Origin: Trypanosoma brucei
Lineage: Eukaryota
DNA: 64,000 bases
NCBI GenBank assembly: GCA_000002445.1
Contig: CP000067.1
Location: forward strand, 96,001-160,000
Direction: 5' to 3'
The notes below the pieces were generated by a model that saw only the letters and a program-made list of their open reading frames with translations, did no database searches and was not told the origin of the DNA. The translations under genes were made by a program, and so were the position numbers. This document shows, one piece after another, positions 35,219 through 58,600 of this stretch; the first letter of the stretch is position 1, and the number at the start of each line of letters is the position of its first letter.

Positions 35219-38200
35219 TCACGTACGATTTGCAAGTCCAGAGCAGTCCGCACCAAGAAACGCTATACGACAGACGGGACATATTTCGCCCTTATGTTTA
35301 GGCATAGCAGGGGAAAAGCAGTAACCACATCGAATGGGATCAACTGTTCCCTTGTACATTGGCCTATGAGAAACAGAACAAAGCACAAATGGATTGCGCT
35401 CGTCATAGTCCACAGGTTCAGCATCTGTTGGATTTCTCTCAGCTTCAGCAACAATTGCTGAAGCCTGTGCTGCCTTTTGCTTCGGTGGATCCTGATCCAA
35501 AAGCCTCCTCGCAACCGAAGCTGCTATCTTCAAATTCTTCAACTTGTAGGCTTTACTCATAGCTTGACCAAGGGCCAGAGCAAGATGATTCCGCTGAAGT
35601 TTGAAATGTGTAAAGTAGAGTGACAACTCTAGTGAAAGTTTCGAAGCACCATCAGTACTACGACAGTGTAGCTGTACATTAAGAGCACGCGCATACTCGG
35701 AGGCGGTAGTAACAATCTCTCGAAGAGTAGTAAATTGCTTCTCACCCCTGCAGGTGGTAAACACAGCTTGATGCAATGCGGTAACAAAATGGAGTTGGGC
35801 ATCCGCGAAGTGTCCTCCAACAAACGCAGAATAACCGGAACGCAACCGTTCAGTGAGCTGAGGAATATAATCTGGCAACAACGGAGAGTGAGACGCCGCC
35901 CCACGCTGCTCCTCAGAAGGATATGTTGTCAGAGGGAACATAGCGGACGGAATAAGCCAACTGGGCCGCGACGCATTGACTGTGGCCCACAGATCCAACA
36001 TATGAGTTTTGAGAGGAGCAGGATCCCCTAGTCCAATTTGGCGACGCAATAAACCAAGTGCCGTTGAAAAAGAACCAGCGGCGACGTGAAATGCCGGAAA
36101 TGAAGAGGTTTCAACCCAATGCTGCGTTAGCGGTGGGCGTTCGGTAGGCACAACGTAAGGCGCACCTTCGACTCCGCCCGCAGTCTGTTCTGCAGGAATC
36201 TCAATTTCGAGATCGTCACCCCAACCGTCACCTTCTGCAGCTTCACTGCCCTCAACCCCATCCAAACCGCCACTTCCGTCATCACTGTTAGGAAGCCCAT
36301 CAACATCATCCCACCCTGCACCGGCTTCAGCATATTCCTCTTCCTCAATCCCAACACCAGCACCACTCAGCAAGTTGGGTTCCCTCAGAAACCTGGAGAA
36401 AACAGATTCCTCCACCTGCAACATAGGCCAATTGTCGGTAACTGGTGTTACTGTCGGCGCCTCTAACCGTACTTTGACCTCTGTCTGCCGCATACGTTCT
36501 GCAACATCAGGATCCATTTTTTCGAGGAGCGAAGCTGCTAATTCATCCAACCCAGTTGATTTGGCGGCCACGTACGCCAGCGGAAGTTGTCCAGTATTAG
36601 TCAATGTCTTAACGCGCTGATGAGCATCGTCGAGATACATACCGTAGTGAAGACCGAAGTTCTCATCCCTTACCGTGTTAACCATGTGATCTAAAGCAGA
36701 CATGTTTCCAGTTATGAGAGACAAGAAACTTGCACCATGAAAGTTTCCTGTCTTTGTGTGAGCCAAGAGTGCAAGATGAATATCCCCATATGAGGTTGCC
36801 GCCTCTGCAAGCCTTCTCCACAATGCGGGTTGGTTTAGTTCCAGTGCTGCTGTCTTTGCGACATCCATGGCGCCGCACTCTACCGCTAAGTTGAACCTAG
36901 TTAAGGGGTCTGAGACGAGATACAGCGCAACCTCGTCGTGGCCATGTTTGTGTAGGTAACCAACAAGCGCCTGTCCCCTGAGTTGTTTTTGGCGTATAAT
37001 TTTAATAACATCCCTGTAGGCCTGCTGCTGCAACTTTAGTTTAAAATTAAGTTCCGGATTGTTCAGCTCCATTACAACAACTTTTCCATTGCGGGAAAGC
37101 GCCCAGACCGTATCACCACTCGCACGAACAAGATAAATCGGGGAAGGGAGACACTGAATGATACCGCACTCCCCGTTGCGCAAGTTACAATACTTGAGGT
37201 GGTCACTCGTAGTGTAATAAAGGATATTTCTTTGCTCATCAAATGCCGCGCTCTTAATCCTTATTGATGGTTCCGAAAAAAAGGTAATGCTCCTCAAGCG
37301 CCTTGTCATGACGTGAACGGTGGTAATACCCAAAAACGCCACCTTCGTAAAGTCTTTGTCCCATACAACATATTTAGTCTCCGTTATTGGAACCTCTGCG
37401 GCCACACTCTGCTGAGCCACGTGAAACAACTCCATACCCTCCTCGGTCTGACGTAAAATATATCCTGCAGGCCCTGGAAAGAGGGCCTTTAAATTTTTTT
37501 CGTGCTTAATCACTTTTTCACCATCGCCGTGTGCATTACACAGAATTATATTTTTATTCTTGTCGAGGAACGCGCATTTATTAGGGGCATAAAACAAAGC
37601 GGCAAGAATACCGAGGCGCTTCTTCACATCTGCATCGACTGTACAGCCTGGTTTGGGAATTGTCAAGGTTGATGCACACCCACCATCCTTGTCGTAAAAA
37701 ACAACAGCCATGTTATCCACTGGGTTGCAAGAAAGGGTGAGAGGTGGGTGTAAGTTTCGTGAGAGACTGAACTTGGATTCTGTCTTTGACTCCATGTTAT
37801 ATGAATGGAGCACGTTCCCGTGGACGTAGTGTAGCACGTTACCATTCATAGTCGACGCAGGACGTTCGCGGAAAAGCTTAAATACGTGCACACCGGAGTC
37901 GTGACCAGCAGCAAGAAGGTTCTTTTCTAGTAACGCCGCTAGCATCCAGTAACGGTCAGACTCGCGGCGAAAAAGCATGACTGAGCAACGTGTTTTCACG
38001 TCCCAAACACGGATTGTTCGATCCTCACCGTTTGACACGAGATAATCCTTAGTGTACACAACGCAACTCACATTGTTGGTGTGCCCCCGCAGTTGTACCT
38101 CCTCAGTGCAGGTGGTACTACTAATTCGCCAGACGCGGACGGTGCGGTCGTCTGAGGCCGATGCAATAAGTGGCTGAGTGGGATGAAAGCAAACCCAGTT

Positions 38201-38797
38201 AACGCCTTTATCGTGGCCCTCTAATGAATATTTAAGACCCACATCACTGGTTCCGAGCAGATCTTGAGCAATTCCCGGCTGTTGCTTTCGGACCCGCAAA
38301 CTGGAGATGTCCCACACTCGAATTGTCCTGTCAAGACTCGCTGATACCACAATGTCATCCCGAGGGTGAAATCGAGCACACATAACGTAGTGCGTATGCC
38401 CAGGAAGACAAGCCAAACTGCTTCGGTTCTGCCAATTCCAAATGCGGACGGTGAAATCGTCGGAGGAGGAAACAATCCATGGTTGCTCATGGTGGAAAAA
38501 AGTTGATCGAACATAGTCCATATGCCCCTTTAAAGTAAAGAGGGAACGGCGCGCCTTGTAGTTCCAAACCTTCACCAAGTAGTCATCACCTCCAGAAACA
38601 AATAGAGGTTGCGTATCATGAAAGTCTACACCACGTACCGCACCGCTATGTTCATCATACTTATCAACGCTCGTGTTCACGCGGTAGTCCCAAATTTGCA
38701 CGGTTCCGTTGTGCAGTCCGCAAAGCACCCACGGCCGCGTTTTGTGGAAACTTATCCCTTTCACACGACTGGAGCGAACATCAAATCTCGTCAGCAT
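35219..38797 (-). CDS. COPA: Coatomer (COPI) alpha subunit.
   Basis: ATG confirmed at 38797. The N-terminal WD40 propeller is collinear with alpha-COP (MLTRFDVRSSRVKGISFHKTRPWVLCGLHNGTVQIWDYR... vs [39 protein letters not shown]). Central coatomer WD-associated region and the alpha-COP C-terminal domain present. 1192 aa. Confidence 0.95.
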   Translation of the reverse strand: MLTRFDVRSSRVKGISFHKTRPWVLCGLHNGTVQIWDYRVNTSVDKYDEHSGAVRGVDFHDTQPLFVSGGDDYLVKVWNYKARRSLFTLKGHMDYVRSTFFHHEQPWIVSSSDDFTVRIWNWQNRSSLACLPGHTHYVMCARFHPRDDIVVSASLDRTIRVWDISSLRVRKQQPGIAQDLLGTSDVGLKYSLEGHDKGVNWVCFHPTQPLIASASDDRTVRVWRISSTTCTEEVQLRGHTNNVSCVVYTKDYLVSNGEDRTIRVWDVKTRCSVMLFRRESDRYWMLAALLEKNLLAAGHDSGVHVFKLFRERPASTMNGNVLHYVHGNVLHSYNMESKTESKFSLSRNLHPPLTLSCNPVDNMAVVFYDKDGGCASTLTIPKPGCTVDADVKKRLGILAALFYAPNKCAFLDKNKNIILCNAHGDGEKVIKHEKNLKALFPGPAGYILRQTEEGMELFHVAQQSVAAEVPITETKYVVWDKDFTKVAFLGITTVHVMTRRLRSITFFSEPSIRIKSAAFDEQRNILYYTTSDHLKYCNLRNGECGIIQCLPSPIYLVRASGDTVWALSRNGKVVVMELNNPELNFKLKLQQQAYRDVIKIIRQKQLRGQALVGYLHKHGHDEVALYLVSDPLTRFNLAVECGAMDVAKTAALELNQPALWRRLAEAATSYGDIHLALLAHTKTGNFHGASFLSLITGNMSALDHMVNTVRDENFGLHYGMYLDDAHQRVKTLTNTGQLPLAYVAAKSTGLDELAASLLEKMDPDVAERMRQTEVKVRLEAPTVTPVTDNWPMLQVEESVFSRFLREPNLLSGAGVGIEEEEYAEAGAGWDDVDGLPNSDDGSGGLDGVEGSEAAEGDGWGDDLEIEIPAEQTAGGVEGAPYVVPTERPPLTQHWVETSSFPAFHVAAGSFSTALGLLRRQIGLGDPAPLKTHMLDLWATVNASRPSWLIPSAMFPLTTYPSEEQRGAASHSPLLPDYIPQLTERLRSGYSAFVGGHFADAQLHFVTALHQAVFTTCRGEKQFTTLREIVTTASEYARALNVQLHCRSTDGASKLSLELSLYFTHFKLQRNHLALALGQAMSKAYKLKNLKIAASVARRLLDQDPPKQKAAQASAIVAEAERNPTDAEPVDYDERNPFVLCSVSHRPMYKGTVDPIRCGYCFSPAMPKHKGEICPVCRIAFLGADCSGLANRT

Positions 38798-39155: not shown

Positions 39156-40127
39156 TCATTCGTTAAGGAACTCACACCTGTCAGGGTACACCTGTCTTAC
39201 GTTAATATTGACACGCAAATGACGCATCTGCTCCCTCCAGTAAAATTCTCCTTCTTCCTCCTCCGTTTCATTCTGTGGGCACAAGTACTGCGGACAATCG
39301 TCCATAATGCGTGGTACGCCGTGGTAAGCTGTTCGGGAGGCACCGCTCACGACAATAACATCGCCACTACGGAGCCAAAAGGCACACGGCGTATCGTCAC
39401 GAGACTCGGTCCCCATGAGAAAAACACATGAGCATCCCAGAGAAATACTAATGAGCGGCTGTTGCAGCACTTCTTCACTCACATCCTGGTGAGCCATCAT
39501 CATAGCCCCTACCGGGAAGTAGTTGACAATCGAAGTTTGTGGCTCGTAAGGCTGTGAAACGTTACAAAGGCGGGCAATTCGTTCAACACATTTTCGAAGC
39601 CGCCGGGGAAAATGCGAATACTTCTCCTTGCAGTATGATTTAGATGACCATTGATAACTAAACCCCACCGTCGCCCAACGCATTGGTGGTTCATAACGTG
39701 TTGTTTCCCTTGGCTCGCTCGCATGGGTCGAGAGGTGATTGGGGTGCCGCCGAGAATCGCCGTATTCCAGTAAGGCAGCGCGGCAAAATTCCTGCTGCTC
39801 CGCATCCGTGAGAAAATTCGGGAACACCTCCATTCCGGGGACGCCGGCAAATGTGCAACACTTCACGAGCCGGTCATCCTCATGGCACTCCCTGGTGGAA
39901 ATACACGCCAGGTTTGCTGCTGTGTTCGCCTCAAGATTGCGAAAATCAACAACATCGCTAAAGTCCGTTTCAGGAACTTGTAAGCGCCGTGATGTCCGGC
40001 GGTCGTAACGGTAAAGTTTGTAGCGCTTCTCCACTTGTCTAAACGCCGTCAACGGCAACAATTCCCCCTGACTGTAGCCATCGTCTTGCGCGTGTTTCTG
40101 ACATTCGCAGCGCACGGGGTCTTCCAT
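39156..40127 (-). CDS. AlkB-family Fe(II)/2-oxoglutarate-dependent dioxygenase (ALKBH1-like), 324 aa from ATG.
   Basis: The track ORF's first 31 codons (IPLHFNHFHFFLFF...) translate the pyrimidine tract; ATG confirmed at 40127 (MEDPVRCEC). HxD...H...R arrangement: VNYFPVGAMMMAHQDVSE, LRSGDVIVVSGASRTAYHGVPRI (cf. ALKBH1 ...GDIMIMSGFSRLLNHAVPRV). Confidence 0.6.
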   Translation of the reverse strand: MEDPVRCECQKHAQDDGYSQGELLPLTAFRQVEKRYKLYRYDRRTSRRLQVPETDFSDVVDFRNLEANTAANLACISTRECHEDDRLVKCCTFAGVPGMEVFPNFLTDAEQQEFCRAALLEYGDSRRHPNHLSTHASEPRETTRYEPPMRWATVGFSYQWSSKSYCKEKYSHFPRRLRKCVERIARLCNVSQPYEPQTSIVNYFPVGAMMMAHQDVSEEVLQQPLISISLGCSCVFLMGTESRDDTPCAFWLRSGDVIVVSGASRTAYHGVPRIMDDCPQYLCPQNETEEEEGEFYWREQMRHLRVNINVRQVYPDRCEFLNE

Positions 40128-41455
40128 TGGGGAACCGACGAAGAGCCAAAAACAACTGAGGGAAAAGAAAAGAAAAAAATGAAAGTGGTTAAAGTGAAGT
40201 GGAATTAGTGCGGCACCCACTCAATGATATTCGCCGTAGTGCGTGGTATTGGAGCGTATTTTAAGTGCTAAATTGGAACATCAACGGCTAGTTAAAATAA
40301 TAAAGCAAACAGAATAAATTAAATAAAAGGTGGAGCAAAGGGATCCATATACAACTCCGAATTGAGAAGCCCACTTCTACTTGTGAAAAATAAGGGCACA
40401 GGCAGCGCAATCCCACACATGAACGCGGAACTTCAAAAAATAAATAATAAAGACCATCAACTACCTTAGTTGGAGACAAGTTAAATTTTTTTCCTTTTAG
40501 AGAGAAAAAGGAAGGCACGGACACGCATACACCACTGGCAACGCATGGTGGTAAACAGCACCACCGGCACCTTTTGTGACGAAGAGCCCAAATTTATTAT
40601 TATTGTTCCCCACATCCAAGACAGCACACCAGCAAATAGAAAAAAGAGATACAGCACTATCAACAGCGGCATGTCAGTAGAGATCGAAAATGACAGGCAA
40701 AGCCCTACGGTTCTCGTCGTTTTATGGGAGTTTCGAGGTGTTGTAGTGATGCTCGTAACCATCGGCCTGTAAGCAACTCGGAAGCTATCAATGGAGGTCC
40801 GCATTGTTTCAATCCCTCACGAAACCTCGAATATGCGGAAAATAACCCCAGAAACAATGCGGTGTTCATTCAGGAGGTGGGGGTGGACGAACATCAAATA
40901 TGAATGGCATCTCACAGCTACGAGGATATGAAGCATCAACTGTCCAAGTGAAATCAAGTAGTGAGAAAATCAGTTTTTTTAGAAGCGACTCGGAATGCCA
41001 CAGCGATAATCCCTCGACAGCTAGCGTTACTGGAGGAGGGAAATGGATCCAAACACAACCAAGAAGAAATAAATTAAATGTTATGTTTCACATTGTTCTT
41101 GTTGAGGGATGCGTTCTTGAATGAGAGATGCAGAAAGTGGGAAAATAAGTGCAAACCATGAAACAACAATGAATGGGACACAACCGAAACAGCAAGAGCC
41201 AACAAAAAACGTAGCAAAGGAAATAAATTCCTTTCTCGTGTTTTACGGTGAAACTTATTAGAACAGATTCTCACTCGCCGTTTAACATTAAGCGGCTTTT
41301 CTCGTTCCCTTTTATGTCTCTTCGTTTCCTTCATTTTCCTTTTCTTCTTGTGTTACACCCTTTCCTCTCCGTTTACTTGCGCGTCGTTAGCCGAAGTTAC
41401 TACCGATCATGGGTGGCGCAAATAGGTTAAAAGACACCCATCAGCTCCAACTGCA

Positions 41456-42145
41456 TCAAAAACCACGCCCGCGGCCACCAAATCCCCCGCGGCCGCCGCG
41501 ACCGCCACCACCGCCACCAAAGTTTCTGTAGCCGCCTCCGTCTCCTCCTCTGCCGAAACCACCCCGGCCGCCACCACCACCACCACCTCCTCCTCCAAAA
41601 CTCCCGCGACCACCGCGACCGAAGCTTCCGCGTCCACCGCGATCACCGCCCCTTCCGCCACGACCGCCACCCCGCCCGCCGCGGCCGCGTGGCTTCGGTG
41701 GATCAGTGAACATACGCAGAGGACTTATCTGTGTAGGGGATATATATATCGTATCTCCTGCGCTAATGGATTCTGCTTGTATGCCCGGTACCGTTTTGAC
41801 TGAAAACATTACATCGCTCGTGTTGCCCAATATTTCCTCGATCTTACCAATCTTGGCCTTGTTGGCACCATAAACAAATGCGTTGAAACGTGGTACAGAG
41901 TCACTCGCTGTCACTTTGTAGACGAGGTCGCCCTCCGAAGCGGTGAGCAATGTTCCGATGGGTACAATTTGCTCTGGTGGGTCCGGCTCCATGGAACGGC
42001 CACCGCCACCACCTCCTCCTCGACCACCGCCACCGCGTCCACCGCCAAAGCCACCGCCGAAGCCGCCGCCTCGACCACCACCTCCCCGACCACCGCCAAA
42101 GCCACCGCCCCGGCTGCCTCCAAAACCGCCTCCTCCCCGTGCCAT
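41456..42145 (-). CDS. GAR1: H/ACA snoRNP protein GAR1 (core domain flanked by two glycine/arginine-rich domains).
   Basis: ATG confirmed at 42145. Core IGTLLTASEGDLVYKVTASDSVPRFNAFVYGANKAKIGKIEEILGNTSDVMFSVK vs yeast/human GAR1 [53 protein letters not shown]. N- and C-terminal (GGR/FGG)n domains. Confidence 0.9.
   Translation of the reverse strand: MARGGGGFGGSRGGGFGGGRGGGGRGGGFGGGFGGGRGGGGRGGGGGGGRSMEPDPPEQIVPIGTLLTASEGDLVYKVTASDSVPRFNAFVYGANKAKIGKIEEILGNTSDVMFSVKTVPGIQAESISAGDTIYISPTQISPLRMFTDPPKPRGRGGRGGGRGGRGGDRGGRGSFGRGGRGSFGGGGGGGGGGRGGFGRGGDGGGYRNFGGGGGGRGGRGGFGGRGRGF
41459..41690 (-). repeat. Imperfect GGN/CGN triplet repeat encoding the C-terminal GAR domain of GAR1 (plus strand reads ccgcc/accgc repeats).
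   Basis: Visible as ...ccgcggccaccaaatcccccgcggccgccgcgaccgccaccaccgccaccaaag.... This produces spurious proline-rich and arginine-rich ORFs in other frames of the track. Confidence 0.7.
41993..42145 (-). repeat. Imperfect GGN/CGN triplet repeat encoding the N-terminal GAR domain of GAR1.
   Basis: Plus strand ...ccaccgccaccacctcctcctcgaccaccgccaccgcgtccaccgccaaagccaccgccgaagccgccgcc.... Confidence 0.7.
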
Positions 42146-42427: not shown

Positions 42428-43126
42428 TCATGGTGTTTCACAGGTCTCCCGCCACTCAGCAAAAAGATCGAAAGCAGTAGGCCATGCATCTTCCTTCCGA
42501 TATGGGGTTGCATTTTCTCCGGTATTGAAAAACAACGCCACATGCCGCCAAATGTCGCGGGTAACCTCGCAATCGTAAAAACCTGTGTACCATCTGATCC
42601 ACTGTGCAACCTGCTGGTCACCCCTAAACAGTACATCCCACGCCCTCGCTGCAGTTTCAGGAAGCATCATGCGCGCACTATCCCCCCTAATGTAATCATA
42701 TAATTCGCTGTAGAACTCAACAAAAGAAGGACCTCTTGCGTCCTTCACCCACTCCCGAAGCCGTCTCTTCAGTTCCACCGGGACCTCAATGTTGTAGTTG
42801 TACACCATGTTCAACCAATCTGAGCGTGGAATGCACCCACCCCTTGTAATCCCAAGCTTCCAAATGAGCGTGTACATCTCGAAGGAATCCCTTTTTATAG
42901 CAAGATCCTCACAGAGATGTTGAATTCCCTTTGGTCCTATAGTTTCTAGGCCTTCTGCAGAGTCCATCGACGCAAAATTCTCAAAATAACGTTCCATCTC
43001 AGTTCGACCGGTCGAAGAGGCAGTGCCTGTGGAAGCCTTAACCGAAGACACAAAGCGTGAGGCTCTCCGTGCCATCTTGTGCGGATCCAACCCGGTGACG
43101 GTTGTCGACATATCCCCCGTTACCAT
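42428..43126 (-). CDS. DCN1-like protein (defective in cullin neddylation; PONY domain), 233 aa from ATG.
   Basis: Track start at 43180 is TTG; first ATG at 43126 (MVTGDMSTT...). C-terminal EDAWPTAFDLFAEW matches DCN1 EGAWPVLIDDFVEF. The preceding helical region fits the PONY fold. Confidence 0.6.
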   Translation of the reverse strand: MVTGDMSTTVTGLDPHKMARRASRFVSSVKASTGTASSTGRTEMERYFENFASMDSAEGLETIGPKGIQHLCEDLAIKRDSFEMYTLIWKLGITRGGCIPRSDWLNMVYNYNIEVPVELKRRLREWVKDARGPSFVEFYSELYDYIRGDSARMMLPETAARAWDVLFRGDQQVAQWIRWYTGFYDCEVTRDIWRHVALFFNTGENATPYRKEDAWPTAFDLFAEWRETCETP

Positions 43127-43980
43127 TATTATTATTTTTTTTTTTGCTTCTTCCTTCCCTCGAACTATATGGGTGCGCAAAAATACAGTTAGTTATATTG
43201 TTGTATAAAAGCAGGCAAGCGCAAGCGCTTGCTTCAGAAACTGCACAGCTGCCACACCTCTTCAACACCAACGAAAGGGACTTTTCACCCGCGCTATAAC
43301 ACAAACACTACAATTACAAAAATAAATAAAGAAACAGCAACAGTGAAGAAAAGAGAGCGCAGCGCAACAGTTTCAGTAGCGGTGATTGTATTAACGATTT
43401 TCAGAAATGGAAAAAAAAATCAAAATAAAGAATTCTTGAAGCACCGAATTTTACGATCGTCTGCGGTTCTTAAAGAGAGCGCTAACACATGACATGTCCC
43501 CGTGATCCCCACCCACCGTTACGGGGCCTCTGCAGCTGATCGGCTCGCAGAAGTGACGATTTTTTTTTTTCACCATCGGCAGTCGAAAAGGGGGGAAAGC
43601 GTAAGGACGCGAAGATATCCACTTGAACTTCACATCACCCATTCACTAAACACCTGCAGAGCTTTGTGAAAGAAAATTCACCGCAGAATACTTCCGAAAG
43701 CATTTGAGATTCGTCATGACAGTGTGAGGTCCATAGGTCATACCACAGGAGGCACCCAACATAGCAAAGTCAACGAGGAATAAAGAGAGCCAAAACGAAT
43801 AAAAATAGATGAGAAAAGGAGGGGTTCTCACATCTCCATTACTCGGCCGCTAAATATATCCATCAAAAGAAGCCTCCGCAACAACAGCACTCCGCCAACT
43901 TTATAAGTAAATAGAGTATAGCGCATCCAAGCTATGGGAAAGGAAACATATGTATATGTAGCTATTTCTGATAAACACAA

Positions 43981-46453: not shown

Positions 46454-47746
46454 TTAAGCTGGAACTTTACCGCGCAAAATGTCATCATACAGTGCTGTCA
46501 GAGTTGCTCCCGTCAATGAGATTACAGATTTGCTTTTGGTTCCTTTGGTGAAAACAACCGCTCCACAGCCGGTCAATATATTCCTGGCAGTACGGCGCCA
46601 CGCTGGTGGAACTTTTTCCAGAGAGAAACGCCTCCCCAGTAGGGCGGGCTTTCCGACGTTTGAAGTAATGACTTGGAAGAGGCGCCCAGCATCGTAGGTG
46701 CAGTTGTTGTGAACTAGCGACGGCGCAAACTGCCTCACCTGTCGCATATCCCCACATGCGAAAAATTCCTCCGTAACAACCGGTATGCCGCGGGCAACGG
46801 CAATGATAAATTTGGGTGTTCGTACGGGTGGGTGATTGATTATAAGAAGATCTGCCATGCAAACATTATCCACAATAGACCAGCAATGCTTCTTCGCAAG
46901 GAACTTAGCCGCCAGCGTCGCTTCTCCACACATCCCTGAAAAGCAAACTTTCACTCGACCCTTCGATTTACTCTTGGGTTTTAGGCGGCTACCTCTTGCG
47001 GTAGTTTCACTTTTAACCGTAGCTGAGGAAGGCAAGCTCTTAACCTTAGATAACCTGTCAGTGGTGTTTTTAATAACGGAGCGGGATCGTTTCCTCCCGG
47101 CGCCAGTACTCTCCGAAAGATACGGAACCACATTTTCAAGTTCGCAAAGAGGTTTGCACAGCACGCCGCAATCCAATTGCACAGAAACAACAGCGCAAGT
47201 TTTTTCATCCGATGCGGCGGTCAGAGTCACCGGCAGCGGGGGTGTTGCATCCGTTCCCGCAAGGGAACAAGAAGCACAAATGGATGAGCACACGGTTCCT
47301 TCAAGACGAAGCAAATCGTTGCTGGCCCCATTCATCCCAGAACCCTGTGATGAATCCATTAGGTTTGCATTTGAGTCGTAGACGGGAACTCTTCCCCCGC
47401 AAACGGCAATAACGTCCCATTCAAAGCGCAATTTCAAGTCACCAAAAGTAACATGGTTACCGCGCTTCAACTGGTAGAAAAACCCCGGCTCCAAGCGTAC
47501 ACTCACACCCGTGTCGGAGTGAAGGAAAGTTCCGTTAGTGCTTTCGCAATCGCGTAGCCACGCCTCCCCATTTTCGCATAGTTTGATGATGGCGTGCGTA
47601 CGGCTCACGTTGATGCATGTGGTGCCGACACAAACAACGTTTGCACCCTTGACTGCTATTTCTGCTCCACGACGGATGATGTTTTCCCCAGTTAGCAGCC
47701 GCATGATCCTCCCAGTAGATTCATCAATGAGAAAATACCTCTTCAT
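46454..47746 (-). CDS. FHA-domain protein with C-terminal tandem BRCT domains (430 aa from ATG); DNA-damage-response type architecture.
   Basis: Track start at 47821 is GTG; ATG confirmed at 47746 (MKRYFLIDESTGR...). FHA hallmarks GR...SR.HA.I.....WL.D.S.NGTF. BRCT1 VKVCFSGMCGEATLAAKFLAKKHCWSIVDNVCMADLLIINHPPVRTPKFIIAVARGIPVVTEEFF, and a second BRCT-like unit to the C-terminus. S/T-rich basic linker between them. Confidence 0.55.
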   Translation of the reverse strand: MKRYFLIDESTGRIMRLLTGENIIRRGAEIAVKGANVVCVGTTCINVSRTHAIIKLCENGEAWLRDCESTNGTFLHSDTGVSVRLEPGFFYQLKRGNHVTFGDLKLRFEWDVIAVCGGRVPVYDSNANLMDSSQGSGMNGASNDLLRLEGTVCSSICASCSLAGTDATPPLPVTLTAASDEKTCAVVSVQLDCGVLCKPLCELENVVPYLSESTGAGRKRSRSVIKNTTDRLSKVKSLPSSATVKSETTARGSRLKPKSKSKGRVKVCFSGMCGEATLAAKFLAKKHCWSIVDNVCMADLLIINHPPVRTPKFIIAVARGIPVVTEEFFACGDMRQVRQFAPSLVHNNCTYDAGRLFQVITSNVGKPALLGRRFSLEKVPPAWRRTARNILTGCGAVVFTKGTKSKSVISLTGATLTALYDDILRGKVPA

Positions 47747-47821
47747 CGGATACCTTAGGTATACCACGAGGGGGTTGCGCCTCCGAGCACTAAACCAAAG
47801 GGCACAAGCATACGCGCACAC

Positions 47822-47866
47822 AATAGGAGGCAGAAAAAGAAAAGTAGGAGAGGATGGGAATGTAAA
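47822..47866 (-). promoter_or_regulatory. Polypyrimidine tract upstream of the FHA-BRCT gene.
   Basis: Plus strand ggaggcagaaaaagaaaagtaggagaggatgggaatg, i.e. a CT-rich tract on the transcribed strand about 80-120 nt upstream of the ATG at 47746. Confidence 0.35.
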
Positions 47867-48165
47867 TGCGTAGACAACTTATACTAACGTGAATGCGCAG
47901 AGTAAGTCCAAAAATTTGATACTATCTACAATGCTCAGCCATGGGTCAGCAAATGCGCAAGCAAACATACGTGTAGAACACACTTCGCTTTGCTCCCACC
48001 CCACCCCCTCCGCACACAAATAAACAACCTCACAACTTCGGTCCGCACCATTGATTCAGGAGGAACCTCAAATCACCACCAACAGCTGTTCGTTTAGTAG
48101 ATGGCAGTCAAGAAAAAGGAACAAACAAGAAAGGAAGCGAAGAGAAATAGTCAAGTGTGTCGCTT

Positions 48166-48483
48166 CTAGCTTTGCTCCAGAGCATCAGACACCGCCCTCT
48201 TCACTACAATGCCAAAGTGTTCATTTGGGCCGGCAATCGTAGTAATGACGTACGCAACATTGTCGAACACCATCGATATGCGTTTGAGTTCCTCCCCAGG
48301 CCTAAGTAATGTGGAGGCTTGTTGTGCTACTGTGTAGGCAAGTAGCCGTTTCTCCTCATTTTGGAAGTCACCACTCCACTCCAGCACTTCACCCACGGAA
48401 GTAAATATGACAAAGTGGTTGGCCCCTTGATTCAGAAGCCGATCCTTCAACAAACTCGCTTGACTCATTGCAGCCACCTCCAT
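48166..48483 (-). CDS. Roadblock/LC7/MglB-fold mini-protein (105 aa from ATG); a dynein light chain LC7 or a Ragulator (LAMTOR)-like subunit.
   Basis: The track ORF's upstream 54 codons (FIFVYVLTYFCLFLLPFHFSS) translate a pyrimidine tract; ATG confirmed at 48483 (MEVAAMSQASLL...). The alpha-beta-beta-alpha-beta pattern LLKDRLLNQGANHFVIFTSVGEVLEWSGD...LLAYTVAQQASTLL...ISMVFDNVAYVITTIAGPNEHFGIVV parallels DYNLRB1 and LAMTOR2 layouts. Assigned by fold-level resemblance only. Confidence 0.4.
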   Translation of the reverse strand: MEVAAMSQASLLKDRLLNQGANHFVIFTSVGEVLEWSGDFQNEEKRLLAYTVAQQASTLLRPGEELKRISMVFDNVAYVITTIAGPNEHFGIVVKRAVSDALEQS

Positions 48484-48881
48484 CCCTTCCCTTTTATAAC
48501 GTGTGTCAAATTGATGGGACGAAGAAAAATGAAAAGGAAGCAAAAAGAGGCAGAAATACGTTAACACATAAACGAATATATAGGTGTGTGTGTCTACGCA
48601 CATGGTGCCAGTAGCGTCATCCAGAAACAAGCGAAACCAACGCACAAAATAGGAAGGTGAGCAAAAACATCAAGAGCAGATACCATCTGGAAAAGGCGTA
48701 AAAATAAAAAAAATGAAACGTTCGAACATCAGGAATAATCCTCTACACGAAGTATGAGATAAAGAAATCATAAGAGAAACCCCCCTACAATTTCACAAAA
48801 AATACGCACATTCACAAAAACACATATATTCATAAGCGCTATTTATTAGTTTTCGTGCACACGAGTATCCCGTCATTATCC

Positions 48882-52744: not shown

Positions 52745-54292
52745 TTAATCATCGTCCGGATCCACAAAATCCGGCAGTTCATCTAATCCCTCCCATTCCT
52801 CAGGGATATTAATCTCCCAATAAGCTGGCAGGCTAAACACCTCCTCTGGTGAATATTTCTTCAGACATTGCTCCACAACACGCAAAACCTTCTCTAGCCG
52901 CGATTGCATTGTAAAAAAAATTGTGAGGCCTAACATGTTAAAGACAAAAGGGTGTAACACCTTCCGCACATGCGCTACCAGCGGAAGGGTACGATATAAT
53001 GAATCCGGTTCATCATACGCCTTCAGTGCATCATATGTTCCACGCCTGAAGCGGCAAATGGAAATATTCGCTACATTCCCAGAGAAGGGATTATTACTGG
53101 GATCAGCACGTGAATAAAAACCGCTACCGTGATCAAGAAAAGCGTACTTGGCGAGTCCCTTGATGCGTTTGTCCTTCATTGGTCGGTCACAAACGGTTTC
53201 ACGACCGCAGCCACCGTACACAAAGTTGTTGTGGTCATTCATACCGCGATCACTATTACCAATGATGAAGTCGAAAATAAAACGGTCATTAAGCTCACCG
53301 ATAGCCCGCAACCTCGCGCTCTTTGGAGGCCAAAATGAACTTCCTGGAATGAAATACTTCTTGGCAAAGGCATTGTCATACTTATACGGCAGCTCCAAAA
53401 AAGTTTCCAATGCTGGATGGACATCATGCATCCATAGTTGAACAGAAACGTAGGCGCAAAGTGAAGCACGAAACGGTGGGTGTCGTGAAGAATTTGTGCA
53501 AGACACAAAGTCCTCTTTGATGTTCTTATCTTCAAAAATAGTGTTCGACGCCCACTGCGAGAGGAGAGGGGAAGTTGCGGCAGCGGCTTGCATATGCTCC
53601 ACGGGAAGAGCAACTAACACTGTTGTGGGAACTCGTGACAAGTTCAGGGCGCGATCAACACTAAAAGCAGCTACCTCACTACTGGCCTCGAAGTAAAACC
53701 TACCCTGAGAAACCTTCACTAGCGCTTTGATTCCATTATGGGCATATGTAATCCTAAACTTTATCGTGCGCCCGTACAACAGCTTTGACGACATGGCCTT
53801 AATGTAGCGCATGTTGTTCAGATTGCTAAGGTACGCCTTGCAAAGTTCATCACGTTCCACCGTAAACTCTGCGTTGCGTCTATCGCACGCCTCCCATTCG
53901 CCTCGTTTTGATGAATTGACAGTTGCAAGATTGTACGGCAAAGGCACACCCAGCCCTGGCTTGGCAATGATGTCTGTGAACTTACCCGATGGTTGCCAAG
54001 GGTCTCCTTCAATTTCCTTCAGGAGTAAATTGTTCGCAAACGTTCGTAGCGCCTCAACGTACTCTTGTGGGAGAATGTAATCCACTGCAGCCACTTGTGA
54101 ATCTTCTGCAGTTTTTTTGGAAATTGGAGTGGGTGCCTCGCCTACACGGCTGGATGAGCCAAGGGTTTTATATAGTAAGCCACAACATACACACACAGGC
54201 ACCATCAAAATAAGAACAAGGAAAATTAGCACACGGCGCCTCGCACGTGTCCACTTCACGCGGCTACGGCGGCTGAAGTGACGAAAAGACAT
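52745..54292 (-). CDS. FAM20 / Four-jointed family secretory-pathway (Golgi) kinase-like protein, type II membrane topology (515 aa).
   Basis: ATG confirmed at 54292. N-terminal basic stretch followed by the signal-anchor [21 protein letters not shown]. Collinear matches to human FAM20C: GIKALVKV...[20 protein letters not shown] vs GTKALFKP...[32 protein letters not shown] vs [22 protein letters not shown] vs [22 protein letters not shown] vs CCRIRKSTYLRL. Confidence 0.7.
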   Translation of the reverse strand: [515 protein letters not shown]

Positions 54293-55602: not shown

Positions 55603-58600
55603 CTAGGGCTCCAGCACCAGCGCAACACCCGCCAAAATGAAAGCTTTAGCGGCAAGCTCGCTGGCACAGGGTAAATGTAATTCTGCAAGAAACATTTCCT
55701 TCGTGCCATTGGTGTATAACGGTACACCAACAGTGGTTACCGAATCCGGCATTGTGGTCATCCAACCAACATAAGTCTTTGGCATTGGAAATAACGCAGC
55801 CTCGTCCGCTGCCTCAATGGATTGCAATACATTAGACTCATCCAGTACAGCACCTTGCAGCATTAACCCCTCCAAACACACAGGGACTGTTTTACCCTCT
55901 GGTGGTGTAGAAATTGAGGTAACAAGCCGAAGAGCCACGAGAGGTTCGTGAAGGGAATGGGCAGTTTCCTGTCGAAGTGCATGCAAAAACGTGTGCGGTC
56001 GGAACATGGTGGAAATGTTAAGTGAAGACTTGAGAAGATTCCCATTCGTGGCCAACTCGAACAACTTTGCGATTGACGTTGCTCGATGCAACAGTGACTG
56101 CAGCCACGGTAAAATGCGAGGAGAGCCCTGATAATAGTTGTCCCATTGAGCCGGTACCTCGCCAGCGATCATTGTTGAAGCTTCAGCACGCCGATCTTCC
56201 CTCAGCAGAGCTTGACCTTCCAGAACCTTACCCAAGTCCTTCATCGACTCGTCCACAATGCTCACAAGACGCAGTGAAGATGTCATTTCGGCCCCCATGA
56301 AACCGAGAATTGGAGATGCATCCCGTGCAATACTAACTGTTTGCTGCAACAAGTCAGGGTTGGGCCGCATGAGTTCCTCCCACACTTGCAGAATTGGTCT
56401 CAACTTGTTTGCCCACTGTTCACGACTCATGGATGACTCACCTCTTGCTTCAATAAGGAGCTGCAAATCGTCTGTTAGTGCACGAACCTTCGACAACTGC
56501 ACGACGCGATCGGCATTTGGGGGAAGCGAAAAGACGAAAGGAATGTCATTTTCTGGTAGTTCTGATATCACCTTAAGGCAATCCCCATGCTTTCCTGATG
56601 CAGGTACTTTTACCTTTGCAAAGAGATTCATCTGTTGCTTCGCACTGGAGAGCACATTTGGATTAAAAAATTGATCCGTGTACTCCCTGAGGACGCGCAT
56701 GTCATACTCATTTTCCAAGCGAGAGCCATAGATGGCATCCTCCATGAGGCCACGAATAGCACGCCAGTCGGTCTCTCCCTTTGCTTGTTGTAGGACAATA
56801 TCTGAGGCGGACTTAAGATCAGCCGACGTCATTTCGTATGCCTTTGTCCAACCCTGTGGAATGTACGAGCGTCGCTCCTGCAGAATGGCGTGGAACGATG
56901 CCGTGATAAAGAGTAATTGCGTGTGAAGAGTTCCCTTTGCATCGTAAGGACCACTTTCCCAATCCTGGTAAGTGTGAAGAAGGTTTTGCTGTACACCCGG
57001 TGGTGCCTCAAAGGTGATCTTAAGGCACTGAGAAAGAAAAATTGAAGGGAAATCGTCATGCGCCTCGCTTGTGAGGAATAGTCGGAACTTGGAGTCCGGT
57101 TTAAGAACGTTCAGCTCCTTCTGTAGCGCTGTGACCCATGGGATCACAAGGTGCAAATTCTTTAGGAATAGCCAATCACCACTCTCAGCGCAGGCCCGCA
57201 ACAACCGAACAGCTTCCTCAGCCTGTCCACCACCCATAGCAAGTTGGTGGAAGTGATCCCGCCCGACCTTCTGATGAGCAATCGCTTGTAATTCCTGCGA
57301 GGGGTCAGCACCAGTCGTCGTGATTAACAAAATAGGCGTATTTGCCTCCGTACGAGTCAACAGTTGGGCGAGAGTATTATTGTCACCATAAGATTTAACA
57401 TGCAACATGTCACACGCCGTGCTTCTCACCGCCGCCATTAGCCTATCAGGACGAAGAGTCTTAACGACCAGTAATCGCTGAAACCTTGAAAGTTGACTAA
57501 TGAATTTGGGATACGATACCTCTGGGTTGGAGGAACGCATCCACTGCAACCAAACATCAGCCTCATGAAGAGAAAGCTTCGGTGTGAGATCTTCAAATAA
57601 CACGGCAAAGGAGCGATAAAGATCTCTGCTGTCTGGGAGTACCCACGTGGGCACCCGTACTTCGCTCTTCTTTGCTTCAGGGGCGATGGCGCGGTCAAGA
57701 AAGAAGTCCCATTCAGCAGCAGTGCAATCATTAGGGTACAGAGAACGAGCAAGGTGGATCCCGAAGACTGTACGGTGCTCCTTAAACAGGGAAGTGCAAA
57801 CCGAAGACACAACGCTTCGCACAAATGTCTTCGTTAACGCATCAATTTTAGTGTCGATATCGGTACGATCTTCTGCGTGGTGATGCAGTGTGTCGTTGAA
57901 TATCCCCATAAAGAAGCTGAAAGAAAACTGATACATATGCGACAGGGCTTTCAGACTTTTCACAATAAAGAATATTTCACTCGCCGTTTTTGCGAATGGT
58001 CGGTACACATTGCGCTTGGTATCGATTTCCTCCTGAACCTTCTTCGACGTTTCTAGCGCCACACTAATCTCCGCAGCCTGTGTTTTGATTTCGTTAAGGG
58101 AGTCAATCAGCGTTTTGTTATCCAGTAGCGATCCCTTTGACTCCGCTAAGTCTTTGAGGAGCGATTCCTCCAGATCGCTTAGTTGCATTTTCAGTCGCTC
58201 TTCTTTCTGAAGGACGGCAAGTTTCTCCTTCTCCAACTCCGGCTGTTCGTGTTGAATGGTTGCACCCAAAAACTGCCCCTCAAGACCATTTTGAGTTATG
58301 GAGAAGTTAACAGGAGTCAAGTAACTGAGAACGTCTGGGGGAATCCAAAGGTCAGTGGAGTTGGTAACGAGATAAAGTTGGAATCCATCCGCGTAGTCCA
58401 CCGTGCGACGGTCGCCGAACTGAATGACGCGTTTTGTACCCTCGGTCCGAAGTTCTTTTCGGAAGAGCGGGTACATGAACGCCTCAATGCCGTCTACATC
58501 AGTGAGAATAAAGCTCTTACCGAAGCGAAGCGCCAACTCCAAAGAAGATACAAACCGTTCTTCAGACACACTACAAACTTCCACTGATAGGCCCTTGCCT

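What the first reader, a model, noticed from the sequence alone, without database searches (positions are those of the whole stretch)
46454..47821. FHA + tandem-BRCT protein (MDC1/NBS1-type architecture); start codon is 25 codons inside the track ORF
N-terminal FHA domain (GR..SR.HA.I..WL.D.S.NGTF), a ~170-residue S/T-rich basic linker, then two C-terminal BRCT repeats. FHA plus BRCT2 is the architecture of phospho-dependent DNA-damage mediators such as MDC1 and NBS1, and of some fungal mediators. Kinetoplastid orthologues of these mediators are poorly defined. The track ORF begins at a GTG. The first ATG is at 47746 (MKRYFLIDEST...), directly downstream of a CT-rich tract on the transcribed strand.
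Basis: partly seen in the sequence, partly recalled or inferred. Interest (0 to 1): 0.55.

Follow-up and report, generated by a model that had tools for sequence, protein, structure and literature searches.

The report
Compact MDC1-like FHA–tandem-BRCT protein of trypanosomes
This Trypanosoma brucei gene (very probably Tb927.4.500) encodes a small, uncharacterised relative of the animal DNA-damage mediator MDC1, which makes it the best candidate so far for the protein that reads the parasite's unusual phospho-threonine damage mark on histone H2A.

Summary
ORF 46454..47821(-) starts at GTG. The first in-frame ATG (47746) gives a 430-aa protein identical to T. brucei TREU927 XP_844200.1/Q57US5. 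[quoted passage not shown]

Layout:
- FHA domain, residues 1-113.
- Disordered linker, about 150 aa.
- Tandem BRCT, residues 263-430 (AF2 pLDDT 93).

The kinship is with MDC1, not NBS1:
- A family profile searched against all PDB sequences hits MDC1 FHA (2.8e-5) and Mdb1/MDC1 tBRCT (4e-5, 2.5e-4) best, and never NBS1.
- In 1.84 billion representative proteins, the first relatives outside the family are animal MDC1s.
- The MDC1 gammaH2AX-binding residues are kept in 50-51 of 51 family members: S/T270-G271, R309-T310-x-K312.

T. brucei gammaH2A is pThr130-Pro-Ser-Val-COOH, the same register as pSQEY-COOH. The best hypothesis is therefore a minimal MDC1 that reads gammaH2A.

Caveats:
- There are no TQxF or SDTD repeats.
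- BRCT2 lacks alpha2'-beta4'.
- BRCT domains generally prefer pSer.
- The gene is not among MMS-sensitising hits in a genome-wide RNAi screen.
- No experimental work on it was found.

Verdict: new member of a known kind, moderate interest.

The parts
46454..47746 (-). Coding sequence from the ATG at 47746 to the stop at 46454-46456. The 430-aa protein is very probably Tb927.4.500.
   Evidence: Exact match to XP_844200.1/Q57US5. [quoted passage not shown]
47747..47821 (-). The 25 codons between the mechanical GTG start and the real ATG. Most likely 5' UTR or intergenic sequence.
   Evidence: The deposited protein and the orthologue N-termini start at the ATG.
47823..47860 (-). Pyrimidine-rich tract, a candidate trans-splicing signal. 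Candidate acceptor AGs follow at 47791/90, 47782/81 and 47755/54.
   Evidence: Read from the sequence. Use as a spliced-leader acceptor is inferred and has not been mapped.
47408..47746 (-). FHA domain, residues 1-113. Phosphothreonine-pocket residues are R26 (47669-47671), S48-R49 (47600-47605) and S69-T-N71-G-T73 (47528-47542).
   Evidence: Pfam 34.8 bits. AF2 pLDDT about 80. MDC1 FHA is the best PDB hit, 2.8e-5. R26, S48, R49 and N71 are present in 51/51 family members.
46961..47407 (-). Disordered linker, residues 114-262. It has one SQ and no TQxF or SDTD repeats.
   Evidence: AF2 pLDDT about 30. Composition and motif counts.
47111..47131 (-). Conserved short motif V-V-P-Y-L-S-E (residues 206-212) inside the linker. 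Partner unknown.
   Evidence: P208 in 48/51, Y209 in 38/51 and L210 in 42/51 family members.
47081..47095 (-). Basic cluster R-K-R-S-R (residues 218-222), probably a nuclear localisation signal.
   Evidence: Read from the sequence. Similar KR clusters follow the PYL motif in T. cruzi and T. grayi. NLS function is inferred.
46754..46960 (-). BRCT1, residues 263-331. The phosphate pocket is S270-G271 (46934-46939). R309-T310-P311-K312 lies at 46811-46822.
   Evidence: AF2. These residues align with MDC1 T-G and R-T-V-K. Conserved in 50-51 of 51 family members.
46637..46753 (-). Inter-repeat linker, residues 332-370, with a beta-hairpin and a helix.
   Evidence: AF2 domain model, pLDDT above 90.
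46457..46636 (-). BRCT2, residues 371-430. It is shortened to beta1'-alpha1'-beta2'-beta3'-alpha3' and lacks the alpha2'-beta4' segment of MDC1.
   Evidence: AF2 secondary structure. A gap of about 20 residues faces MDC1 'SQDFARCSIPCRIGLPLLS' in the joint alignment.

Best explanation
The gene encodes a minimal member of the MDC1 family of phospho-dependent chromatin adaptors.

Proposed mechanism (inferred):
- After DNA damage, histone H2A is phosphorylated on Thr130. This creates the C-terminal epitope pThr-Pro-Ser-Val-COOH.
- The C-terminal tandem BRCT docks on this epitope.
- S270 (side chain), G271 (backbone NH) and K312 hold the phosphate.
- R309 contacts the +3 residue and the free carboxylate. 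These are the roles of T1898/G1899/K1936 and R1933 of human MDC1 on pSer139-Gln-Glu-Tyr-COOH.
- The N-terminal FHA domain then binds phosphothreonine on a second protein, or on another copy of itself.
- The disordered linker supplies a nuclear-targeting basic patch and a conserved P-Y-L motif for a further partner.
- The protein would thereby concentrate repair or checkpoint factors on damaged chromatin.

What is shown: the domain folds, the specific kinship of both domains with MDC1, and the conservation of the ligand-contacting residues.

What is inferred: the ligand (gammaH2A), nuclear localisation, the partners and the biological role.
For: (1) Both domains point independently to MDC1.
- Family profile against all PDB sequences: MDC1 FHA 2.8e-5 and 1.5e-4, Mdb1 tBRCT 1.9e-4, MDC1 tBRCT about 8e-3. 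The next unrelated FHA hits are at 0.08 or worse.
- The tBRCT-only profile gives Mdb1 4e-5, MDC1 2.5e-4 across both repeats, and then MCPH1 and 53BP1, which are also gammaH2AX binders.

(2) Profile search of 1.84 billion representative proteins.
- 38 family members score below 1e-30.
- The next tier (1e-15 to 1e-7) is made of proteins that their sources name MDC1, from skate, ray, shark, eel, elephant, mussel and beetle.
- 48 of about 115 next-tier hits carry an N-terminal FHA plus a C-terminal tBRCT.

(3) hhalign, family against metazoan MDC1: tBRCT probability 99.2% over 139 columns; FHA 99.5% over 89 columns.

(5) Ligand-contacting residues.
- They align with MDC1: FTG to (F/L)(S/T)G, and RRTVKF to (V)RTPKF.
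- Their conservation is S/T270 51/51, G271 51/51, R309 50/51, T310 51/51, K312 51/51.
- The roles of G1899, K1936, R1933 and E2063 are described in PMC11014961.

(6) T. brucei gammaH2A was defined with the peptide KHAKA[pT]PSV. The phospho-residue therefore sits at -3 from the free C-terminus, as in pSQEY (PMC3334830).

(7) No paper naming a trypanosome gammaH2A reader or MDC1 was found.
Against: - BRCT pockets generally prefer pSer, whereas the trypanosome mark is pThr (PMC10386641; PMC11014961).
- The mid-region motifs through which animal MDC1 works are absent. There are 0 TQxF (RNF8 docking), no SDTD (NBS1 docking) and one non-conserved SQ.
- BRCT2 is truncated.
- In the MAFFT alignment only, the residue aligned with MDC1 T2067 is Asp in 39/51 members, as in BRCA1 D1840. 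The residue aligned with E2063 is Thr in T. brucei. A preference for a free C-terminus therefore cannot be read from the sequence.
- Tb927.4.500 is not in the MMS+/MMS- <0.5 gene set, nor among the stored rows (ratio <=0.77), of the genome-wide RNAi screen (PMC5542689). This is weak evidence: MMS is not a clean double-strand-break agent, RNAi efficiency is unknown, and the table was cut when stored.
- No localisation, binding or phenotype data were found.
Confidence: 0.5

Rival explanations
1. The protein is an MDC1-derived or MDC1-like phospho-adaptor whose tandem BRCT reads something other than gammaH2A. The ligand would be an internal pSer-x-x-hydrophobic motif on a replication, mitotic, kinetochore or telomere protein. 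In that case it is not the gammaH2A reader.
For: - BRCT domains prefer pSer.
- Asp at the position aligned with MDC1 T2067 resembles BRCA1, which binds internal pSxxF motifs.
- There is no strong MMS phenotype in RIT-seq.
- The mRNA is 2.6-fold higher in proliferating bloodstream forms than in procyclics. This fits any proliferation-linked role.
Against: - The Arg (R309) that reads the C-terminal carboxylate in MDC1 is kept in 50/51 members.
- The H2A phospho-site has exactly the MDC1-type -3 register.
- The closest solved sequence relatives (Mdb1, MDC1, MCPH1) are all gammaH2A(X) readers.
- The protein is not among the listed KKT proteins.
Confidence: 0.28
2. The FHA domain, which is phosphothreonine-specific, reads gammaH2A pThr130, with Val133 at the +3 position. 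The tandem BRCT would then recruit a pSer-containing partner. This reverses the division of labour seen in animal MDC1.
For: - The trypanosome mark is pThr rather than pSer.
- FHA domains select pThr.
- All canonical FHA pocket residues are invariant in the family: R26, S48, R49 and N71 in 51/51.
Against: - The FHA is specifically MDC1-like. In MDC1 it binds other partners and itself, not H2AX (PDB titles).
- This reading leaves the near-invariant R309 in the tBRCT unexplained.
- No evidence bears on FHA +3 specificity.
Confidence: 0.12
3. The protein is the trypanosomatid NBS1/Xrs2 subunit of the MRE11-RAD50 complex.
For: FHA plus two BRCT repeats is also the domain content of NBS1.
Against: - The domain order and spacing are wrong. 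The FHA and BRCTs are separated by a 150-aa disordered linker, and the protein ends at BRCT2 with no C-terminal tail for MRE11/ATM-binding motifs.
- No NBS1 chain is hit at E<=10.
- A different gene, Tb927.8.5710, is the assigned NBS1 homologue (PMC7897489).
Confidence: 0.03
4. The resemblance to MDC1 is convergent. An FHA and a tandem BRCT were fused independently in the kinetoplastid lineage, so no MDC1-like function can be inferred from ancestry.
For: - FHA and BRCT are promiscuous modules.
- Overall identity to MDC1 domains is low: 17-28% in profile alignments.
- Fission-yeast Mdb1 and plant BCP3/4 lack the FHA, so an ancestral FHA-tBRCT protein requires several losses.
Against: - The two domains have MDC1 as best match independently of each other.
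- The same N-FHA ... C-tBRCT order, with the RRTxKF motif, occurs in animals and in chytrid fungi.
- Shared sequence strings go beyond the fold requirements: GKNVVGR, DC.S.NGT, ARGIPV.
Confidence: 0.07

Closest known systems
[quoted passage not shown]
   Same: - N-terminal FHA, disordered middle and C-terminal tandem BRCT.
- The phosphate triad and the carboxylate-reading Arg are conserved.
   Different: - 430 aa, against roughly 900-2100 aa.
- No TQxF, SDTD or PST repeats.
- BRCT2 lacks alpha2'-beta4'.
- The presumed ligand is pThr-Pro-Ser-Val-COOH rather than pSer-Gln-Glu-Tyr-COOH.
- Asp replaces T2067.
S. pombe Mdb1 (PDB 7P0J)
   Same: - It is the best single PDB sequence hit for the tBRCT (4e-5).
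- It is a small MDC1-family protein of a unicellular organism.
   Different: - Mdb1 is matched only over its BRCT region here.
- By my knowledge it has no FHA domain.
Chytrid-fungal FHA-tBRCT proteins (e.g. [quoted passage not shown]
   Same: They are non-animal proteins with the same FHA ... tBRCT order and the RRTVKF motif.
   Different: - They are longer (about 600-1080 aa).
- By motif they are closer to the animal MDC1 sequences than to the kinetoplastid family.
Arabidopsis BCP4/BCP3 (plant functional counterpart of MDC1, PMC11014961)
   Same: - A C-terminal tBRCT binds gammaH2A.X with an Arg equivalent to R1933.
- They lack the SDTD and PST repeats.
   Different: - The plant proteins have no FHA.
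- They use Asn/Gln in place of K1936/G1899.
- The trypanosome protein keeps both the FHA and the canonical Lys/Gly.
NBS1/Xrs2 (PDB 3HUE)
   Same: It has the same domain content: one FHA and two BRCT repeats.
   Different: - NBS1 has a fused FHA-BRCT1-BRCT2 supramodule at the N-terminus plus a long C-terminal tail.
- There is no sequence hit.
- A separate T. brucei gene is the assigned NBS1.
T. brucei KKT4 tandem BRCT (PDB 7QRO) and KKT13 FHA
   Same: They show that kinetoplastids use phosphopeptide-binding BRCT and FHA modules.
   Different: - They are different genes. KKT13 is Tb927.7.4860.
- They are kinetochore proteins.

Membership tests
MDC1 family | N-terminal FHA domain (all 119 metazoan MDC1s examined have one; PMC11014961) | tested here: met
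   - Pfam FHA 34.8 bits, above the 20.7 cut-off.
- AF2 fold.
- MDC1 FHA is the best PDB sequence hit, 2.8e-5.
- hhalign 99.5%.
MDC1 family | C-terminal tandem BRCT of the phosphopeptide-binding class | tested here: met
   - AF2 pLDDT 93.4.
- The profile hit to MDC1 spans both repeats.
- Variation: BRCT2 lacks alpha2'-beta4'.
MDC1 family | Phosphate-binding T/S-G in the beta1-alpha1 loop and Lys in alpha2, plus the Arg that reads the +3 carboxylate (MDC1 T1898/G1899/K1936/R1933) | tested here: met
   S270-G271 and R309-T310-P311-K312 align with FTG and RRTVKF. They are conserved in 50-51 of 51 family members.
MDC1 family | Acidic residue on alpha3' that pairs with the Arg (MDC1 E2063) | tested here: inconclusive
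   The aligned position is Thr417 in T. brucei and Asp in 28/51 relatives. The alignment of this helix rests on MAFFT only.
MDC1 family | MDC1 is the nearest relative of both domains, rather than any other FHA or tBRCT family | tested here: met
   PDB-wide profile ranking. The first named hits outside the family in the 1.84-billion-protein library are MDC1. No formal phylogeny was made.
MDC1 family | TQxF repeats in the middle region (present from invertebrates upward) | tested here: not met
   There are 0 TQxF and one SQ. S/TQ motifs are not conserved among orthologues.
MDC1 family | SDTD (CK2/NBS1-docking) and PST repeats (vertebrate and mammalian features) | tested here: not met
   None is present in the linker. 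They are also absent from invertebrate MDC1 and Drosophila MU2 according to PMC11014961, so they are not universal for the family.
MDC1 family | Direct phospho-dependent binding to the gammaH2A(X) C-terminus, and recruitment to break sites | not testable with these tools
   This needs peptide binding and imaging. The ligand register matches: KHAKA[pT]PSV-COOH.
NBS1/Xrs2 family | FHA fused directly to BRCT1-BRCT2 as one N-terminal supramodule | tested here: not met
NBS1/Xrs2 family | C-terminal tail carrying MRE11- and ATM/Tel1-binding motifs | tested here: not met
   The protein ends 4 residues after the last BRCT2 helix. Another gene, Tb927.8.5710, is the assigned NBS1.
Kinetoplastid kinetochore proteins (KKT) | Identity with a listed KKT gene (KKT13 FHA, KKT4 BRCT) | tested here: not met
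   KKT13 is Tb927.7.4860. The only chromosome-4 KKT entry is KKT8, Tb927.4.5110.

The most novel reading that the evidence does not exclude
This protein is the long-missing reader of trypanosomatid gammaH2A. It would be a minimal MDC1 whose canonical tandem-BRCT pocket (or, alternatively, its FHA) has adapted to a phospho-THREONINE C-terminal mark (pT-P-S-V-COOH). It would couple break signalling to homologous recombination and hence to VSG switching.

A corollary follows. The FHA...tBRCT architecture of MDC1 would date back to the last common ancestor of Discoba and opisthokonts, and would not be an animal or vertebrate invention.
Probability: 0.4. Interest if true: 0.6.

Novelty: new member of a known kind. 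Interest (0 to 1): 0.45.

Why it matters
[quoted passage not shown] Yet nothing is known about how the damage mark gammaH2A (pThr130) is read. The kinase is unknown too (PMC5542689).

A concrete candidate with named contact residues (S270, G271, K312, R309) makes the question directly testable. The tools needed are peptides, point mutants and tagging.

There is also an evolutionary point:
- A 2014 survey dated MDC1 to the Vertebrata (PMC3969565).
- A 2024 study concluded that only the tBRCT was ancestral (PMC11014961).
- An FHA...tBRCT protein whose two domains are both specifically MDC1-like is found here in kinetoplastids, and also in chytrid fungi.
- This argues that the full architecture is much older, with FHA loss in plants and fission yeast.

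The pThr/BRCT mismatch is a small but real biochemical puzzle.

Against this, the gene is annotated and its domain content has been public since 2009. Automatic pipelines already call the Leishmania orthologues MDC1.

Tried and rejected
- **Literature.** Searches for a named trypanosome or Leishmania MDC1, or for an FHA-BRCT protein, found nothing specific. The only mention of the gene is one table row in PMC2771046.
- **Gene ID.** It was obtained by guessing IDs around alpha-COP. That alpha-COP is Tb927.4.450 is my recollection. [quoted passage not shown]
BRCT1 scores 20.5 bits, below the 21.3 cut-off, and BRCT2 is not detected. Structure prediction was needed.
- **The afdb50 fold library** was unavailable.
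- **Taxon lookups** for divergent family members returned only unnamed environmental or SRA contigs. The spread within Euglenozoa is therefore unresolved.
- **The RIT-seq supplementary table** was truncated at ratio 0.77. Only a lower bound on the MMS ratio could be obtained.
- **NBS1 identity** was considered and rejected. **KKT13 identity** was also rejected.
- **Not possible here.** A complex with the H2A tail could not be modelled, because chimeric inputs are not accepted and phosphate is not modelled.
Full report
**What is there.**
The minus-strand ORF 46454..47821 is 455 codons long and starts at GTG. The first in-frame ATG is 25 codons in, at 47746. The 430-aa product from that ATG is identical, residue for residue, to T. 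brucei brucei TREU927 XP_844200.1/AAZ10641.1 (UniProt Q57US5). That protein is annotated 'hypothetical protein, conserved / FHA domain-containing' and lies on a 1,590,432-bp record. The product is 99% identical to the T. b. gambiense protein.

Orthologue N-termini (T. cruzi MEQYFLVD, T. grayi MEHYALID) begin at the same position. On the coding strand, a pyrimidine-rich tract (47823..47860) is followed by AGs at 47791/90, 47782/81 and 47755/54. All lie between the GTG and the ATG. The only other upstream ATG (47811) is out of frame.

[quoted passage not shown] Its mRNA is 2.6-fold higher in cultured bloodstream forms than in log-phase procyclics (PMC2771046). I take this to be the same gene. 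The inference rests on the chromosome, the domain content and the neighbouring alpha-COP gene.

**Anatomy.**
- Pfam detects the FHA above threshold (34.8 against 20.7 bits). It detects one BRCT just below threshold (20.5 against 21.3) and does not see a second repeat.
- AlphaFold2 on the full length gives a confident FHA sandwich (residues 1-112), a 149-residue unstructured linker (114-262, pLDDT about 30) and a two-lobed C-terminal domain.
- Modelled alone with 26 sequences, the C-terminal domain reaches pLDDT 93.4 and pTM 0.89.
- BRCT1 has the full beta1-alpha1-beta2-beta3-alpha2-beta4-alpha3 order. A hairpin-plus-helix linker follows.
- BRCT2 is shortened to beta1'-alpha1'-beta2'-beta3'-alpha3'. 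In a joint alignment, a gap of about 20 residues faces the alpha2'-beta4' segment of MDC1.
- The linker is 23% Ser+Thr, and basic only in its last third.
- The linker contains a short motif, (V)-P-Y-L-x-(E/D), that is conserved across the family (P 48/51, Y 38/51, L 42/51). In Trypanosoma species it is followed by a KR cluster, probably an NLS.

**Which family.**
A profile of 13 trypanosomatid orthologues, searched against every PDB sequence, gave this ranking:
- MDC1 FHA domains: 2.8e-5 and 1.5e-4.
- Fission-yeast Mdb1 tBRCT: 1.9e-4.
- MDC1 tBRCT: about 8e-3.
- MCPH1 tBRCT next.
- No NBS1 chain appeared even at E<=10.

A tBRCT-only profile sharpened this: Mdb1 4e-5, MDC1 2.5e-4 over both repeats, MCPH1 5e-3, 53BP1 0.07.

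The same full-length profile was run without a word index against 1.84 billion representative proteins. It found 38 family members below 1e-30. These are 350-620 aa proteins from trypanosomatids and unnamed environmental contigs. The next tier lies at 1e-15 to 1e-7. I looked up ten proteins from that tier:
- Seven are named MDC1 by NCBI and/or UniRef (skate, electric ray, stingray, basking shark, eel, elephant, mussel).
- One beetle protein is called MDC1 by UniRef.
- One beetle protein is labelled ATRX.
- One is unnamed.

Of about 115 next-tier hits, 48 carry both an N-terminal FHA and a C-terminal tBRCT that match the kinetoplastid domain profiles.

Profile-profile comparison with metazoan MDC1 gives 99.2% (tBRCT, 139 columns) and 99.5% (FHA, 89 columns). 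That comparison alone does not discriminate between tBRCT families. The database-wide rankings do.

The two ready alternatives are excluded. KKT13 is Tb927.7.4860 and the assigned NBS1 is Tb927.8.5710.

**The binding site.**
In human MDC1, the gammaH2AX phosphate is held by the beta1-alpha1 loop (T1898/G1899) and by K1936. R1933 contacts the C-terminal carboxylate and E2063 (Stucki et al. 2005, as summarised in PMC11014961; the T1898 numbering is from my own knowledge).

HMMER, hhalign and MAFFT all align MDC1 'FTG' with T. brucei F269-S270-G271. They align 'RRTVKF' with V308-R309-T310-P311-K312-F313, followed by a shared 'ARGIPV'. Across 51 family members the counts are S/T270 51/51, G271 51/51, R309 50/51, T310 51/51 and K312 51/51. 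The FHA pocket residues are equally fixed: R26, S48, R49 and N71, all 51/51.

The trypanosome damage mark was defined with the peptide KHAKA[pT]PSV. The phospho-residue therefore sits three residues before the free C-terminus, exactly as in pS-Q-E-Y-COOH (PMC3334830).

These facts motivate the mechanism I consider most likely. The tBRCT docks on pThr130-Pro-Ser-Val-COOH, and the FHA and the linker motif recruit further factors. Only the conservation and the register are shown. Binding itself is inferred.

**What argues for caution.**
- BRCT pockets usually prefer pSer and FHA domains pThr. The FHA could therefore be the gammaH2A reader, or the tBRCT could read a pSer motif elsewhere.
- The residue aligned with MDC1 T2067 is Asp in 39/51 members, as at BRCA1 D1840. 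PDB entries 3K05 and 3K15 swap exactly these residues.
- The E2063 equivalent is Thr in T. brucei.
- This alignment of the last helix rests on MAFFT alone, so specificity for a free C-terminus cannot be read off.
- The linker has none of the TQxF, SDTD or PST repeats through which animal MDC1 recruits RNF8 and NBS1. SDTD and PST are, however, vertebrate or mammalian additions.
- In the genome-wide MMS RIT-seq screen, Tb927.4.500 is absent from the <0.5 ratio list and from all stored rows up to ratio 0.77. There is thus no strong MMS sensitisation. This is a weak negative.
- Kinetoplastids have reused BRCT and FHA modules at kinetochores. A non-repair role therefore remains possible.

**Comparison and novelty.**
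The protein meets the structural membership criteria of MDC1: an N-terminal FHA, a C-terminal tBRCT, conserved pocket residues, and MDC1 as the nearest relative of both domains. It lacks the middle-region repeats and has a shortened BRCT2. Functional membership (gammaH2A binding) could not be tested.

It is not new as a gene or as a domain combination. UniRef already names the Leishmania orthologues MDC1. No experimental study was found.

A 2014 analysis dated MDC1 to vertebrates. A 2024 study considered only the tBRCT ancestral, because plants lack the FHA. I found the same FHA...tBRCT order, with the RRTVKF motif, in chytrid fungi. The relatives of P0072 include Spizellomyces, Phlyctochytrium and a Lobulomyces protein named MDC1. 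Together with the kinetoplastid family, this suggests that the full architecture is ancient.

I rate this a new member of a known kind, of moderate interest. Its main value is that it turns 'who reads trypanosome gammaH2A?' into a simple experiment.

Noticed in passing
window 47111..47131 (-), residues 206-212: A short motif, V-P-Y-L-x-(E/D), lies inside an otherwise unconserved disordered linker. It is kept across trypanosomatids and environmental relatives (P 48/51, Y 38/51, L 42/51). A KR cluster follows it in Trypanosoma. It looks like a docking motif for an unknown partner.
   Followed up: partly
window 46457..46636 (-), residues 371-430: The second BRCT repeat lacks the alpha2'-beta4' segment found in MDC1. 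It still packs as a tandem pair (pLDDT above 90). This minimal BRCT2 is shared by the whole kinetoplastid family.
   Followed up: partly
window 39156..40220 (-): A 354-aa ORF has a strong 2OG-Fe(II) oxygenase (AlkB-type, PF13532) match, 1e-52. It may be a DNA/RNA dealkylation enzyme. It lies about 6 kb downstream in the same transcription direction. Proximity in a polycistron is not evidence of a shared function.
   Followed up: no
window 35219..38797, 41456..42145, 42428..43180 (all -): Neighbouring genes are coatomer alpha subunit, a Gar1 H/ACA snoRNP protein and a DCN1-like cullin-binding protein. The last is listed from a TTG start, so its true start is probably an internal ATG.
   Followed up: no
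window 48166..48645 (-): The upstream 159-aa ORF also begins at GTG in the mechanical list. It has an internal Met (MEVAAMSQ...) after a hydrophobic, low-complexity N-terminal stretch. This is the same start-codon issue as in the finding. It has no Pfam hit.
   Followed up: no
window 52745..54292 (-) and 55603..63948 (-): A 515-aa ORF has a weak Fam20C (Golgi casein kinase C-terminal) match, 32 bits. A very long 2781-aa ORF runs almost to the window end. Neither was examined further.
   Followed up: no
PMC5542689 supplementary tables (not the window itself): A nearby gene ID, Tb927.4.550 ('hypothetical protein, conserved'), has an MMS+/MMS- ratio of 0.395 in the genome-wide RNAi screen. That places it in the sensitising set. 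I did not establish which window ORF it corresponds to.
   Followed up: no
L001 1001..2911 (Logan SRR29749762 contig) and proteins P0185-P0187: FHA...tandem-BRCT proteins with the MDC1 'RRTVKF' motif occur in chytrid fungi (Spizellomyces, Phlyctochytrium, Lobulomyces). The full MDC1 architecture is therefore not confined to animals.
   Followed up: partly
window 46836..47381 (+), 47538..47873 (+), 46485..46862 (-): ORFs of 181, 111 and 125 aa overlap the gene on other frames or the other strand. They are by-products of the real coding frame and are not genes.
   Followed up: partly
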